A stretch of DNA of 64,000 nucleotides from a virus. Lineage: Duplodnaviria; Caudoviricetes. A program made the position numbers and the translations under genes. The DNA lies in IMG/VR virus record IMGVR_UViG_3300020048_003360, positions 144,023-208,022 of that record. One strand, written 5' to 3'. The notes under the pieces were generated by a model. It did not search any database. It worked only from the letters and a program-made list of their open reading frames with translations, and was not told the origin of the DNA. Within the stretch, counting starts at the first letter, position 1. Each line of letters opens with the position of its first letter. Of this stretch, positions 12,356-16,359 are shown piece by piece.

Positions 12356-12589
12356 TTGATAATTTACATCCCATAGAACACTACACAAAATATATTGCAT
12401 AATGCTCTACAGGTTGCACACTAGTAGTTATGGGAGTACTAACGCCATAAAACTAATGACAGCTTGCAGTTATATTAAGAATCACTTAATATAACTACCG
12501 TACGGTTATGAAGAGTGATTAGTTCTTCTACATTCACCGTAAGTTAATCCTCACATTATCCCATAAAGTACGTATGGAATGTTTGGAAT

Positions 12590-12624
12590 TGGTGGGCCCG
12601 CCCGGACTCGAACCGGGGACCAAA
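12590..12624 (-). pseudogene. Orphan tRNA 3' half (Ile-like acceptor)
   Basis: TTGGTC-CCCGG-TTCGAGT-CCGGG-CGGGCCC-A-CCA; no matching GGGCC(C/T)G 5' half found in the cluster. Confidence 0.8.
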
Positions 12625-12628
12625 TTAT

Positions 12629-12796
12629 TTAAATTTCTACGTCAGCTCTTACAAGTGGTCTATTCATAAATTGTTCTGCAACTAATCTATGTTCATAAAC
12701 ATAACCTTCCATTGCTCCAGATCTTACAGCTTCTGGATGTTCAGGATTATAAACCATTCTATATTCATTAACAATACGTAATTCTTTTTTAGCCAT
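12629..12796 (-). pseudogene. Truncated HNH homing endonuclease (N-terminal fragment)
   Basis: MAKKELR...YNPEHP...GYVYEHRLVAEQFMNRPL then a stop before the HH..N..DN..NL motif. RBS ACAGGA precedes ATG 12796; the track's longer start lies inside a tRNA. Confidence 0.65.
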
Positions 12797-12818: not shown

Positions 12819-12894
12819 TGGTGGGACCGGAAGGAGTTGAACCTTACATTCTTGGCTTTATGAGAACCCTGCTTCACCGTTAAGCTACAGTCCC
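12819..12894 (-). tRNA. tRNA with CAT anticodon (Ile2 or elongator Met; not initiator)
   Basis: GGGACTG-TA-GCTT-AACGGTG-AAGC-A-GGGTT-CTCATAA-AGCCA-AGAAT-GTAAGG-TTCAACT-CCTTC-CGGTCCC-A-CCA. G1-C72 pair; G27.A43 mismatch; bulged T-stem. Confidence 0.75.
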
Positions 12895-12929
12895 AATTTA
12901 CTACATTTAACTTCTCAAAAATTGTGCTC

Positions 12930-13443
12930 CTTAAGATATTTCTATCTATACTGTCATTCTAAATCAAGAGCATTATTTAGAATCTAGACTATGTTATCAC
13001 CATATATTTGGTAGCTCTTACTCACCACACAGGTGGCTTGCTCAAATACTTAGGTATTCCGTTTCTAGTCTCTACACCTTCCTGTTATTCCTTAACGACT
13101 GTACCACTTCGATCCGTGGCCTTGGTAGGAATACTACGAGTTCAGGCTGGCTCGGCGCTGGCATATTAATAACTACCTTAGAACAGTCTTACTGCCGATG
13201 ATTTTTCTTCGGAAAACCATGAAACCATCATCTGCTTCAGATACTTATTAACTTAGCTTTTGCCGAATTTACGGAAATACTACTAGCGGGTTTCCCTTGA
13301 TACGTTACGCCTTTTCGCGTTCGTCTTACTATACCTGATTCCATTAAGGACTCACAAACATTTCTGCTTGCTCTTCGGCGATTATCCTATCCAGGTTATC
13401 GAAAACTGACTACCATATCATTTTTCGCTAGTGACCTATTACG
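12930..13443 (-). ncRNA. Group I intron-type ribozyme A (no tRNA exons)
   Basis: P2 ACTAGCG/CGCTAGT; P3 TTCCGT/ACGGAA; J3/4 AAA; P4 TTCGGC/GCCGAG; P6 GCCTG/CAGGAAGGT; P7 GACTA/TAGTC; P9 hairpins; ends ...TTAAG. Strongly similar to the tRNA-Leu intron. Boundaries inferred by alignment. Confidence 0.85.
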
Positions 13444-13454
13444 ACACTTTATTC

Positions 13455-13721
13455 TCACACTATATTAAACCTACCATCAAACAATAGGTTTTCATTTTGT
13501 AATCTGATGTCTCCAGAGACGTTCAAATAGTAGGCATCCTTAACCACGGAGCCGTCTTCTAGATAAACATTTATCCTTAAGACATGATTCCCAAGCGTTT
13601 CCTTTATGTCCAGAAACACTCTATCCTTTACAGTAACTCTGGTAGTTACTTTAAGGTCTTCACTTTCTCCAATAGTGAAGTCATTACCAATAAAATACCT
13701 AATCATTTGCACCTCCATCAA
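13455..13721 (-). CDS. Hypothetical 88-aa protein between two group I elements
   Basis: GAGGAG RBS upstream; TGA at 13455-13457. Confidence 0.65.
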   Translation of the reverse strand: MMEVQMIRYFIGNDFTIGESEDLKVTTRVTVKDRVFLDIKETLGNHVLRINVYLEDGSVVKDAYYLNVSGDIRLQNENLLFDGRFNIV

Positions 13722-13747
13722 TTAACTCCTCATTAAAGATTGTGCAC

Positions 13748-14200
13748 CTTAGAATGTTTCCATCCATTTAGTCATTTATGGTCAAGTGTATTACCATAAA
13801 TCTAGACTATTATGCTCCTTCATTAACTGTGGTTCATATTAGAGCTTCTGACAGCCATATGGTATTTTAGGTACATCAGAATTTAAGTACCACAACTACT
13901 AATCTACTAGACAACTAACTTAGGATTCCGTTTTTATAATCACACCTTCCTGTCGTGTCTTTGGAGGTACTTCTATCCTCAGTACTTTATGGGGTCTTAG
14001 TCCCACTACAGGCTTGGCTCAGTATCAACATATTCTTTAAAATAGGCTCTTCATTACATTCGGGCAACCCTGCTAGAACTAACCGAATGAATTCTATTTA
14101 CTCAAACCCGTGGCAGGATTTAACTTCGATTTGAGTACCGTCTCTTAAAGAACTTAGTTTTTACTGATTTTACGGAAACTGATATCTTTGATTAGATCAT
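13748..14200 (-). ncRNA. Divergent group I-like RNA B
   Basis: P3 TTCCGT/ACGGAA; P4 TCAGT/ACTGA (compensatory relative to TCGGC/GCCGA); CCAAGCCTG...CAGGAAGGTG; P7 GATTA/TAGTC; P9 TTTATGGT/ACCATAAA; ends ...CTAAG. J6/7 is 3 nt shorter and no clear P1. 5' boundary approximate. Confidence 0.7.
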
Positions 14201-14234
14201 TGTGTCATTTAGAATGGTAGGTAAAGGAATTAAG

Positions 14235-14489
14235 TTTTTACACTACCTTTTTAACCTATTTTATCCATAGCCACGACTACAGTGCTAATCTAAAGTAACC
14301 AGTGCGGTACTATGCTAGGTGCATAATTGTATAACTCTGCCTAGCGCAAAGCGTGTGTCCTTTACTACTAAAGTTCACGGGAGTAAATGAAGCTATGGAC
14401 TTCATTCAGGGATTTTTCTTCTGATTATGCTCATTGCCGAAGATCCACCCGTCGCACGGTCGTATACCCATGTCCATAGCATGGGTTCC
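14235..14489 (-). ncRNA. Candidate structured RNA of unknown class
   Basis: GC-richer non-coding tract with hairpins ACCCATG/CATGGGT and CCGT/ACGG, plus a GCTATGGA...TCCATAGC...GCTATGGA alternative pairing. Confidence 0.35.
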
Positions 14490-14639
14490 CTACTTGCTGA
14501 AAATCTTTCTACACGAGTAATCTATCACTCGCTTATCGTTTATCATGTAAGACAGTCCCACATAATTACATCCTGATTCGGTTTCTATCTTGGAGTAAAT
14601 AACTTCTCCAGATATAAGGAAAATAATGAGTAGATACAT
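14490..14639 (-). CDS. Small protein with hydrophobic N-terminus (49 aa, MYLLIIFLISGEVIYSK...)
   Basis: Read manually; AAGGAG RBS; TAG at 14490-14492. Confidence 0.6.
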   Translation of the reverse strand: MYLLIIFLISGEVIYSKIETESGCNYVGLSYMINDKRVIDYSCRKIFSK

Positions 14640-14656
14640 TTATCTCCTTACTTAAA

Positions 14657-14706
14657 TGGCCTCCCGTAGTGGACTCGAACCACTGACCCCAATCTTAGAA
14701 GGATTG
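14657..14706 (-). pseudogene. tRNA-Arg(TCT) fragment lacking its own 5' acceptor strand and D-arm
   Basis: CAATC-CTTCTAA-GATTG-GGGTC-AGTGG-TTCGAGT-CCACT-ACGGGAG-G-CCA, beginning 6 nt after the CCA of the preceding element. Confidence 0.75.
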
Positions 14707-15787: not shown

Positions 15788-15820
15788 AATCCGGCGCTCT
15801 ACCAACTGAGCTATTGAGGA
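15788..15820 (-). pseudogene. Orphan tRNA 5' half (Asn-type), ending at U33
   Basis: TCCTCAA-TA-GCTC-AGTTGGTA-GAGC-G-CCGGA-TT. A TCCTC start is typical of tRNA-Asn; no 3' half in the window. Confidence 0.75.
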
Positions 15821-15830
15821 TTATTGTAAC

Positions 15831-16359
15831 TGGTGGGGGTAATCGGAGTCGAACCGATATACCTTGCGGTGAGGGATTTTACTTACCACTTCGGTTTTCA
15901 CCGCCAGTCTTAGCCCTTGCGGGTTATCTTCTGTTCGTGGTCTGGACTATGCTATCGCCATATTACGATTTATCACCTTGACTTGACTTTACAAGTGATA
16001 GTTTATAGTCAACCGTAACGTAGGCATTCCGTCTCTAGTCTCTACACCTTCCTAATCATTAAAGCGGAGTTCTCGCTGTCTTTCGACGGATATTTCCAAC
16101 ATTAACAGTTTAGGCTTGGCTCGGCGTTGGCATACACTCATTCGTATCTTTTCAGGAACCTATCGTTTCGGTATTACCAACCTGCAAAGAATTTTAACTA
16201 TTGAGTGTGAAGCGTTCGCCGAATTTACGGAAATACTACTAGCGTCTTTCGATTGAGTCATTACGCCAAGACAGGAAAAGCCCGCCGAGACTACCAACTC
16301 ATTTTTCGCTAGTGACCCATTAAAGAGTCCCTTGTGTCTACCAATTTCACCATACCCCC
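15831..16359 (-). tRNA. trnL: tRNA-Leu(TAA) interrupted by a group I intron (exons 16359-16326 and 15881-15831)
   Basis: Joined exons give GGGGGTA...AGGGA-CT^TAA-AA-TCCCT-CACCGCAAGGTAT-ATCGG-TTCGACT-CCGAT-TACCCCC-A-CCA, with perfect stems and a long variable arm. Confidence 0.9.
15882..16325 (-). ncRNA. Group I intron (444 nt, no ORF) in tRNA-Leu
   Basis: P1 GACU|C...GGGUC with U.G at the splice site; P2, P3 TTCCGT/ACGGAA, P4 TTCGGC/GCCGAG, P7 GAGACTA/TAGTCC; terminal G at 15882. Confidence 0.9.

What the first reader, a model, noticed from the sequence alone, without database searches (positions are those of the whole stretch)
12930..13443. Intact-looking group I ribozyme A in an intergenic spacer
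Seen: full core (P2 with a large insertion, P3, P4, P6, P7 GACUA/UAGUC, P8, P9). Its first ~25 nt (TAATAGGTCACTAGCGAAAAATGA) nearly match the tRNA-Leu intron, but the upstream sequence is the 3' UTR of an ORF (AAAGTGT|C) and the downstream sequence is the leader of the CAT tRNA. A P1 with U.G is possible (GUGU-C / G-G-U-CAC, one bulge). Inference: intron transposition, possibly by reverse splicing, into a non-coding site, where it may still excise or process the adjacent tRNA leader.
Basis: partly seen in the sequence, partly recalled or inferred. Interest (0 to 1): 0.7.

Follow-up and report, generated by a model that had tools for sequence, protein, structure and literature searches.

The report
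Host-less group I ribozyme in phage
A ~520-nt relative of the self-splicing intron in this giant phage's tRNA-Leu gene sits alone between a small ORF and a tRNA-Met gene, folded like a ribozyme but lacking the exons and splice-site pairing an intron needs, so it is a stranded intron or a ribozyme kept for another job.

Summary
On the minus strand, 13440..12921 carries a complete IC3-type group I core (P2-P9, P7 GACUA/UAGUC). Segments are 84-94% identical to the intron in this phage's tRNA-Leu(UAA) gene 3 kb away and to tRNA introns in other viral contigs. It lies between an orphan ORF (stop 13457..13455) and tRNA-Met(CAU) (12894..12819), so it has no host gene.

It is not a conventional intron. 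The site matching the tRNA-Leu 5' splice site pairs at only 2 of 4 positions with the retained guide sequence. No alternative P1 beats chance. Six joining-region positions that do not vary in 16 relatives are changed, including J4/5 and J5/4.

Its helices are nevertheless intact, with compensated changes. Its last ~90 nt match the neighbouring element B rather than the tRNA introns. Between A and B, 8 base pairs changed on both sides, which indicates selection on this 3' domain.

Origin by recombination around homing-endonuclease genes fits better than reverse splicing. A truncated HNH gene and tRNA fragments lie next door, and a parallel displaced ribozyme exists in another contig.

Whether it still cleaves or splices cannot be settled without RNA data. 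The scan had already reached a similar verdict on sister element B.

The parts
13455..13721 (-). Upstream orphan ORF (88 aa; 83 aa from the ATG with a GGAGGTG ribosome-binding site). Its stop at 13457..13455 lies 14 nt before A's guide region.
   Evidence: No homologue other than itself among 5.8 billion proteins. No Pfam or PHROG family above threshold.
13432..13440 (-). Guide-sequence (IGS) region AAUAGGUCA, matching AAUGGGUCA of the tRNA-Leu intron. G13436 corresponds to the wobble G of P1.
13283..13431 (-). P2 domain. P2 is 13431..13426 / 13288..13283. P2.1 is 13420..13414 / 13304..13298, with a 109-nt insertion. A GGGAAACCC hairpin lies at 13296..13288.
   Evidence: P2.1 is kept through two double (compensatory) changes relative to the family consensus.
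13151..13276 (-). P3 5' strand (13276..13271), J3/4 AAA and P4 (13267..13262 / 13156..13151). J4/5 is AAAA (13261..13258) and J5/4 is CAGC (13160..13157). P5 has a 97-nt extension.
   Evidence: J4/5, J5/4 and the last P4 pair differ from 16 of 16 relatives. The P5 extension is 87% identical to a module that sits in P6 of L006.
13081..13150 (-). J4/6 (CCAG, one A missing relative to the consensus) and P6 (13146..13143 / 13084..13081) with its extension.
12987..13080 (-). Catalytic centre. J6/7, then P7 GACUA (13070..13066) / UAGUC (12991..12987). J7/3 is GAA. The P3 3' strand is 13062..13057, P8 is 13055..12999 and J8/7 is GAUAACA.
   Evidence: P7 is supported in the family by two compensatory pairs in L128. 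P8 is compensated in A (G-C to A-U).
12921..12986 (-). B-type 3' domain. P9 is 12982..12975 / 12964..12957, followed by the conserved UGAC (12956..12953). A GAAA-loop hairpin lies at 12947..12934. The tail UAAGGAGCACAAU is 12933..12921.
   Evidence: Between A and B, 8 pairs changed on both sides. 97.5% of cells are paired, against 32-47% when partners are slid.
12895..12920 (-). Spacer before tRNA-Met. It still aligns with B's 3' flank, which in B holds the ribosome-binding site and start of the 88-aa ORF.
12819..12894 (-). tRNA-Met(CAU), complete. It is the gene immediately downstream of A.
   Evidence: It is 93% identical to the tRNA-Met that directly follows tRNA-Leu[intron] in L004.
12588..12796 (-). 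Truncated HNH homing-endonuclease ORF (55 aa), followed at once by the 3' half of a tRNA(CAU). These are debris of an intron-bearing tRNA gene.
   Evidence: (PHROG 10730, E 3.6e-5). Intact versions of the same arrangement occur in L105.
13722..14490 (-). Element B, a more diverged sister ribozyme that shares A's 3' domain and flank. RF00028 does not recognise it.
15835..16355 (-). tRNA-Leu(UAA) interrupted after U33 by the bona fide intron C (about 16325..15882). It is the reference for A's 5' part.
   Evidence: (ARAGORN with introns: tRNA-Leu taa, 444-nt intron)

Best explanation
A is a host-less, chimeric descendant of the tRNA-Leu-type IC3 group I intron family carried by this and other phages. 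DNA recombination in the tRNA cluster stranded it in a spacer, probably during homing-endonuclease-driven exchange, not by reverse splicing (inferred). Its 5' four-fifths (guide sequence, P2 to P8) come from the consensus tRNA-intron lineage. Its P7 3' strand, P9, a GAAA hairpin and a 13-nt tail come from the lineage of neighbouring element B. It is transcribed with the co-directional tRNA/ORF cluster (inferred) and folds into a group I architecture with the G-binding P7 intact. It no longer works as a conventional intron. There are no exons to rejoin, no canonical P1, and the J4/5-J5/4 loop that reads the 5' splice-site wobble pair is altered. At most it retains guanosine binding and cleavage at or near its 3' end (inferred, untested). 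Its fold was under selection until recently. I take present-day neutrality, a stranded intron early in decay, as slightly more likely than a new function.
For: Core identity: RF00028 33.5 bits over the full model, and 84-94% identity in blocks to intron C and to L004-L012.

No host: an ORF stop lies 14 nt upstream and tRNA-Met 26 nt downstream of the tail.

No P1: the tRNA-Leu members form GACU|C with GGGUC, at -4 to -6 kcal/mol. A has GUGU at that site, with 2 of 4 pairs. The best alternative upstream partner has no U.G and p about 0.10. Distal UGACU sites occur at chance frequency.

Core departures: A differs from 16 of 16 relatives at GGCGAAC>GGCAAAA, CAACG>CAGCG, CCAAGCC>CCAGCC, GAGACGG>GAAACGG, GATAGCA>GATAACA and TAGTCC>TAGTCT.

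Mosaic: the last ~90 nt and the flank align with B, not with the tRNA introns.

Recombination setting: a truncated HNH gene plus a tRNA(CAU) 3' half lie just after tRNA-Met. In L004 the position before the orthologous tRNA-Met is held by tRNA-Leu[intron]. In L105 a rival HNH-bearing intron occupies tRNA(CAU), and the consensus-type ribozyme lies exon-less before tRNA-Arg(CCU). In syntenic L008 that ribozyme is inside the tRNA.

Dispensability: L004 keeps only a ~105-nt fragment of a B-type element.
Against: The helices are not decaying. P2.1 (two pairs) and P8 (one pair) are compensated, and only one helix-end pair is broken. The A-B comparison shows 8 compensatory pairs beside a nearly invariant single-stranded tail. 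That is the signature of a functional RNA, at least until recently. One-sided changes are commoner in the joining regions (6 in roughly 45-50 nt) than in helices (3 in roughly 84 nt), which pure neutral decay does not predict. The family used for 'invariance' was collected with a pattern from the core itself, so invariance of J6/7-P7-J7/3 is partly built in. Origin by recombination is inferred from context and not shown for A. No intron-less or A-less allele was found.
Confidence: 0.5

Rival explanations
1. A is still an active self-splicing intron that excises from the intergenic transcript. It would use a non-canonical P1. One option is the irregular GUG(U)/G(U)CAC pairing at 13447..13444. 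The other is the 7-bp ACCUAUU/AAUAGGU helix, which puts a C-G pair at the splice site (5' splice site after C13487, inside the last codons of the 88-aa ORF). In that model omega-G is G12951 and a 3-bp P10 (UAU/AUA) forms.
For: The helices and the G-binding P7 are intact. The 7-bp helix lies in the canonical register relative to G13436. The same guide nucleotides can pair with the sequence after G12951. Natural tRNA-Leu introns with C at -1 are reported, though untested (bioRxiv 10.1101/2020.01.27.920355). The J4/5 changes could be an adaptation to a Watson-Crick splice-site pair.
Against: No P1 candidate exceeds chance: p about 0.10 for the best, and 10% of random 9-mers in this window do as well. 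There is no U.G. C at -1 inactivates the Tetrahymena intron (same paper). J4/5, J5/4, J8/7 and J7/3 are altered. Splicing of a spacer gives no evident benefit. No RNA data exist.
Confidence: 0.2
2. A and B are domesticated group I-derived RNAs, an 'A/B type'. They are kept for a job other than splicing. One possibility is guanosine-dependent or hydrolytic cleavage just 3' of the ribozyme, which would release or define the 5' end of the downstream RNA (tRNA-Met for A, the 88-aa ORF mRNA for B). Another is a stable folded module that protects or organises the polycistronic transcript.
For: There are 8 compensatory pairs in P9 and the tail hairpin between A and B. The 13-nt tail is nearly invariant, and a UGAC motif is conserved. 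P4 and P8 are also compensated in B. Each element sits directly upstream of a gene, and B's conserved flank runs into the ribosome-binding site. Other exon-less copies with perfect cores exist elsewhere: L105, and L009-L012, L055 and L128 with a conserved 3' hairpin.
Against: There are only two members, both in one genome. Three pattern scans of IMG/VR for the A/B-type motifs gave only chance matches or none. B's active site looks remodelled (shortened J6/7, no guide sequence) and RF00028 does not recognise it. The related contig L004 has lost all but a fragment. The compensations could predate the loss of exons. The tail's predicted long-range partners are not significant.
Confidence: 0.2
3. 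A is the catalytic part of a much larger intron. Its 5' splice site is a distal GACU upstream: UGACU at 13774..13770 in B's 3' domain, or at 13683..13679 inside the ORF. The 88-aa ORF would then lie inside the P1 loop, as homing-endonuclease ORFs do in other introns.
For: UGACU pairs with GGUCA in exactly the register used by the tRNA-Leu intron, with U.G at G13436. L105 shows an ORF carried in the 5' part of a tRNA intron of this environment. Splicing from 13770 to G12951 would recreate a B-like 3' domain.
Against: UGACU occurs about once per kb on this strand, so two sites in 1 kb is chance. The ORF has no endonuclease signature and no homologues. The J4/5 changes argue against wobble-pair recognition.
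Confidence: 0.05

Closest known systems
[quoted passage not shown]
   Same: Same core architecture and near-identical core strings (UUCGGCG.../...CGCCGAGCCAAGC, AAGGUGUAGAGACUAGA..., ...CAUAGUCC) as recalled for Azoarcus, and as seen here in the phage tRNA introns C and L004-L008. The guide sequence GGUC is retained.
   Different: There is no tRNA around it and no canonical P1 or U.G. The J4/5-J5/4 loop is altered. P9 and the 3' end are replaced by a different domain. The phage tRNA-Leu relatives sit after U33, not after U34.
Allosteric group I ribozyme in the 5' UTR of a Clostridioides difficile mRNA (c-di-GMP-II aptamer plus ribozyme; described in PMC3984707)
   Same: A group I ribozyme located in non-coding leader RNA rather than inside a gene. 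B, and A's flank, abut a ribosome-binding site.
   Different: That ribozyme has defined splice sites and a ligand-sensing aptamer. Nothing comparable was found here, and no function is shown.
GIR1 / lariat-capping ribozyme of twin-ribozyme introns (PMC2219692)
   Same: A group I-derived RNA that has given up splicing and acts at its own 3' side, just upstream of an ORF.
   Different: GIR1 has a rearranged core and lies inside another intron. Rfam gave no GIR1 match on A even at E up to 10. A keeps an ordinary P3-P9 core.
Defunct or displaced mobile introns in the homing cycle (e.g. T4 introns with degenerate endonucleases mobilised in trans, PMC2790892; IStrons, PMC4227781)
   Same: Debris of homing-endonuclease genes and gene fragments lies beside the ribozyme. 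The sequence is mosaic. Copies occur at non-standard sites.
   Different: Those elements still sit in, and splice from, host genes. A has no host gene at all.

Membership tests
Group I intron (Rfam RF00028) | Covariance-model score at or above the gathering threshold (50 bits) | tested here: not met
   A scores 33.5 bits, E 8e-7, when searched alone and is not listed in window-scale scans. The bona fide tRNA-Leu intron C scores even lower (17 bits). The shortfall therefore reflects large insertions, not a lack of homology.
Group I intron | Conserved catalytic core: the P3-P8 and P4-P6 domains, with P7 forming the guanosine-binding site | tested here: met
   All helices were located and pair. 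P7 is GACUA/UAGUC, with covariation in relative L128. Six joining-region positions and one helix-end pair depart from the family consensus.
Group I intron | P1: the 5' exon end paired to an internal guide sequence, with a U.G wobble at the splice site | tested here: not met
   The homologous site has 2 of 4 pairs. The best alternative has no U.G and p about 0.10. Distal GACU sites occur at chance frequency.
Group I intron | Omega-G at the 3' end, with P10 to the 3' exon | tested here: inconclusive
   The family's GUGGUAAG end is replaced. Conserved unpaired G candidates are 12955, 12951 (A only), 12930, 12929 and 12927. Only G12951 has even a 3-bp P10.
Group I intron | Interrupts a gene whose exons make a functional product when joined | tested here: not met
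   The flanks are the end of an orphan ORF and a complete tRNA-Met. ARAGORN with introns finds no split tRNA around A.
Group I intron | Self-splicing or GTP-dependent cleavage | not testable with these tools
   No RNA run holds the sequence. The four DNA runs are identical and show no A-less form.
Phage/bacterial tRNA-type IC3 intron clade (C, L004-L012 and others) | Near-invariant core strings in J3/4-P4-J4/5, J5/4-P4'-P6, J6/7-P7-J7/3-P3' and J8/7-P7'-P9 | tested here: inconclusive
   A matches most positions, so common descent is clear. It differs at GGCAAAA, CAGCG, CCAGCC, GAAACGG, GATAACA and TAGTCT, and in all of P9.
GIR1 / lariat-capping ribozyme (Rfam) | Match to the family model | tested here: not met
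   Not among the matches up to E = 10 on A or on B.

The most novel reading that the evidence does not exclude
A and B belong to a so far undescribed class of host-less group I ribozymes that phages keep in tRNA/ORF arrays. They would no longer splice exons. Instead they would use the retained guanosine site and a new 3' domain (P9, UGAC, GAAA hairpin, AAGGNGCACAAU tail) to cut or shape the transcript just upstream of the next gene. The exon-less copies in other contigs (L105, the L131 tandem pair, and the L009-type with an ACU|UAA-bearing 3' hairpin) would be further cases of group I ribozymes working outside introns.
Probability: 0.2. Interest if true: 0.8.

Novelty: new variant of a known kind. 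Interest (0 to 1): 0.55.

Why it matters
Group I ribozymes are known almost only as introns. The few exceptions, the lariat-capping ribozyme and the c-di-GMP-controlled ribozyme, each revealed new RNA biology. A folded group I ribozyme with no exons, whose helices covary with a sister copy, is one of two things. It may be a rare snapshot of how a mobile intron dies after homing-endonuclease traffic displaces it from its tRNA. Or it may be a further case of a ribozyme taken over for RNA processing. Either reading can be tested with one in-vitro transcript. The finding also shows that tRNA-type IC3 introns, including exon-less copies, circulate among large aquatic phages, and that the standard Rfam model at its gathering score misses them.

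Tried and rejected
1. Rfam at gathering threshold on the window found no group I hit. At E up to 10 over 6 kb the filters also removed it. Only the short-stretch search recovered it.

2. RNA evidence: no RNA holder is listed. Contigs of four DNA runs from one study are identical to the window over A. They show no variant and no joint that skips A. One short-sided joint across the tRNA-Leu intron probably comes from another organism.

3. Searches for more A/B-type elements. The pattern for P7'-P9-AAUGAC gave 23 chance matches. The tail pattern gave none. The P3-P4-J4/5 pattern gave none.

4. Relatives of the 88-aa ORF: none in IMG/VR, and only itself in the protein collection.

6. Pairing of the 3' tail with a 5'-domain segment (A -12.6, B -11.9 kcal/mol) is not better than shuffles, p 0.06 and 0.43. 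The L9-tail pairing has one compensatory change but only two sequences.

7. I tested whether the non-tRNA elements L009-L012 interrupt a protein gene, with a 3' exon reading 'ALLNA'. The downstream peptides are unrelated and the upstream ORFs differ, so I dropped the idea. The 14-mer is better read as a hairpin.

8. The constrained fold did not enforce my constraints, so I used only its coordinates. The plain MFE z-score is -1.48, which is uninformative for a pseudoknotted RNA.

9. The promoter/terminator scan gave nothing above shuffles, and no terminator between the ORF and tRNA-Met.

Full report
**Setting.** The window is the last 64 kb of a 208-kb IMG/VR virus record, about 78% complete. 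It encodes a phage-type multisubunit RNA polymerase subunit (PHROG 3233), so it is a jumbo-type phage. Four DNA runs from one aquatic-metagenome study hold it. Everything discussed lies on the minus strand inside a cluster of tRNA genes and small ORFs. In transcription order the cluster reads as follows:

- tRNA-Leu(UAA) with intron C (about 16355..15835)
- a tRNA 5' half
- ORFs and tRNA-Thr
- an odd tRNA-Arg(UCU)-like gene and a tRNA fragment
- a 49-aa ORF
- element B (14490..13722)
- an 88-aa ORF (13721..13455)
- element A
- tRNA-Met(CAU) (12894..12819)
- a truncated HNH ORF, then a tRNA(CAU) 3' half

**Is the ribozyme there?** Yes. RF00028 misses it in window-scale scans. Searched alone, it aligns over the whole model at 33.5 bits, E 8e-7. 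The undoubted tRNA-Leu intron of the same phage reaches only 17 bits, and B gets nothing. The low scores therefore come from large peripheral insertions.

A's blocks are 84-94% identical to intron C and to introns found with two core patterns in nine IMG/VR contigs and several metagenome contigs. These relatives fall into three groups:

- In tRNA-Leu(UAA): C, L004, L005, L006, L080, L089.
- In tRNA(CAU): L007, L008.
- Outside any tRNA: L009-L012, L055, L128, L105, and a tandem pair in L131.

I located every helix of A and checked the coordinates. They are P2, P2.1 with a 109-nt insert, P3, P4, P5 with an extension, P6, P7 GACUA/UAGUC, P8 and P9. The family itself supplies covariation for P7 (GAGCA/UGCUC in L128) and for P8.

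**Context.** The upstream ORF stops 14 nt before the guide region, and tRNA-Met begins 26 nt after the conserved tail. ARAGORN run with introns finds the split tRNA-Leu around C but nothing around A. The upstream ORF has no homologue other than itself and no family. 'Intergenic' is therefore safe, but the ORF may not be a real gene.

**Splice-site features.** In the tRNA-Leu members, P1 is GACU|C paired to GGGUC, with the U.G wobble. A keeps the guide (AGGUC), but the homologous flank is GUGU|C, which gives 2 of 4 exon pairs.

The strongest upstream partner of the guide is ACCUAUU (13489..13483), with seven Watson-Crick pairs. It places a C-G pair, not U.G, at the splice position. Its energy is matched by 10% of shuffles and by 10% of random 9-mers in this window. 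Canonical UGACU partners exist at 13774 and 13683, but that pentamer occurs once per kb.

The family's 3' end (GUGGUAAG|) is absent, and several conserved G residues could serve as omega-G. None of this excludes splicing. No splice model is supported above chance.

**Departures from the family core.** The block alignment shows a core that barely varies in 16 relatives from very different contexts. A differs at these points:

- the last P4 pair and J4/5 (GGCGAAC to GGCAAAA)
- J5/4 (CAACG to CAGCG)
- a 1-nt deletion in CCAAGCC
- J7/3 (GAGACGG to GAAACGG)
- J8/7 (GATAGCA to GATAACA)
- the outer P7 pair (G-C to G.U)

From established knowledge of the Azoarcus structures, the J4/5 and J5/4 adenosines contact the splice-site wobble pair. 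Their alteration fits loss of a 5' splice site. One caveat applies: the relatives were collected with a pattern from J6/7-P7-J7/3, so invariance there is partly by construction. The other blocks were not part of the pattern.

Against simple decay, the helix changes are mostly compensated. P2.1 goes from UGAGUUG/CAACUCA to UGAUAUG/CGUAUCA, and one P8 pair goes from G-C to A-U. Only one helix-end pair is broken.

**The 3' domain and element B.** From the P7 3' strand onward, A resembles B rather than the tRNA introns. An 82-column gapless alignment has 26 differing columns. Sixteen of them form 8 pairs changed on both sides: 5 of 8 pairs in P9, 2 of 5 in a GAAA-loop hairpin, and 1 in a possible L9-tail pairing. 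In all, 97.5% of cells are paired, against 32-47% when partners are slid.

Beside these covarying stems, the single-stranded UGAC and the tail AAGG(A/U)GCACAAU are almost unchanged. The similarity continues about 25 nt further, into what in B is the ribosome-binding site and start of the 88-aa ORF. B also compensates P4 (two pairs) and P8.

This 3' domain has therefore been under selection for its fold in both lineages. Whether that selection acted after the elements lost their exons, or earlier in some unknown host gene, cannot be told from two sequences. Three further pattern scans found no other A/B-type member.

**Origin.** A is a mosaic:

- The guide, P2 and P2.1 resemble C and L004 (92%).
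- P2'-P3-P4 resembles L005 (92%).
- The P5 extension resembles a module that sits in P6 of L006 (87%).
- J6/7-P7-P3' matches the consensus (94%).
- The 3' end resembles B (71%).

In the related contig L004, the gene directly before the orthologous tRNA-Met is tRNA-Leu with its intron. Immediately after tRNA-Met the window carries a 55-aa fragment of an HNH endonuclease (PHROG 10730), abutting the 3' half of a tRNA(CAU).

L105 shows an intact version of that arrangement. There, a tRNA(CAU) is split by a different, RF00028-positive intron (52.5 bits) that encodes a full HNH protein. About 230 nt further on lies a consensus-type ribozyme with a perfect core and no exons, 23 nt before tRNA-Arg(CCU). 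In the syntenic contig L008 the consensus-type intron sits inside the tRNA(CAU). L131 has two ribozymes head to tail. L004 retains only a ~105-nt fragment of a B-type element next to a tRNA 3' fragment.

Together these make a plausible series: displaced but perfect (L105), altered (A), strongly remodelled (B), and a fragment (L004). This favours recombination and homing traffic as the way A was stranded, and it argues that such copies are dispensable. Reverse splicing is not needed, and the flank does not support it.

**Verdict.** I put about 0.5 on a stranded, chimeric ex-intron that still folds but no longer splices conventionally. I put 0.2 on continued splicing from the spacer through a non-canonical P1. 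I put 0.2 on a retained non-splicing function shared with B, and 0.05 on a large intron with a distal 5' splice site. The review literature places bacterial and phage group I introns in tRNA, rRNA and protein genes. Its one domesticated case is the C. difficile 5'-UTR ribozyme (PMC3984707). I found no description of host-less copies in phage tRNA arrays. An earlier follow-up in this scan reached a similar two-way verdict for B. I used it only as a cross-check.

Noticed in passing
L009, L010 (=L044, L140), L011, L012 (=L109), L055, L128: Consensus-core IC3 ribozymes lie between unrelated protein ORFs in different phage contigs. All start with GAAGGUCGCUAG. Each is followed directly by a conserved hairpin GCAUU-ACUU-AAUGC, with A-U to G-C covariation in L011 and L128. 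Its loop, ACU|UAA, repeats the spliced tRNA-Leu anticodon-loop junction. This may be a mobile ribozyme-plus-target cassette or a cis-cleaving arrangement.
   Followed up: partly
L105:3269-5075: Two group I elements lie side by side. An RF00028-positive intron with a full HNH endonuclease ORF sits inside tRNA(CAU). A second, exon-less consensus-type ribozyme lies just before tRNA-Arg(CCU). In syntenic L008 the consensus-type intron is inside the tRNA.
   Followed up: yes
L131 (oriented element, last ~400 nt of the 812-nt extract): Two ribozymes lie head to tail. The 3' end of the first (GUGGUAAG) is followed after 5 nt by the guide sequence and P2 of the second.
   Followed up: no
window 12588-12796 (-): A truncated HNH homing-endonuclease ORF (55 aa, ends before the HNH motif) is fused to the 3' half of a tRNA(CAU). 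It is the remnant of an intron-bearing tRNA gene.
   Followed up: partly
window 15790-15830 (-) and 14650-14705 (-): A lone tRNA 5' half (acceptor, D-arm, part of the anticodon stem) lies at the first site. A lone tRNA 3' two-thirds with a UCU anticodon loop lies at the second. The tRNA cluster is littered with gene fragments.
   Followed up: no
window 13176-13245 (-) versus L006: A's P5 extension is 87% identical to a module that sits in P6 of the tRNA-Leu intron in L006. A peripheral domain has moved between different helices of related introns.
   Followed up: no
G000:C1:129663-129966, 86570-86871, 127114-127465 (all minus; outside the window): Three further group I introns score above the RF00028 threshold (77-92 bits). 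Each is preceded by a long open frame, one of them RNA-polymerase-like. The phage thus carries at least four presumably active introns, plus A and B.
   Followed up: partly
window 15882-16325 (-): The tRNA-Leu(UAA) intron lies after U33 (CU|...|UAAAA), not after U34 as in cyanobacteria and plastids. Default ARAGORN and Rfam miss the gene.
   Followed up: partly
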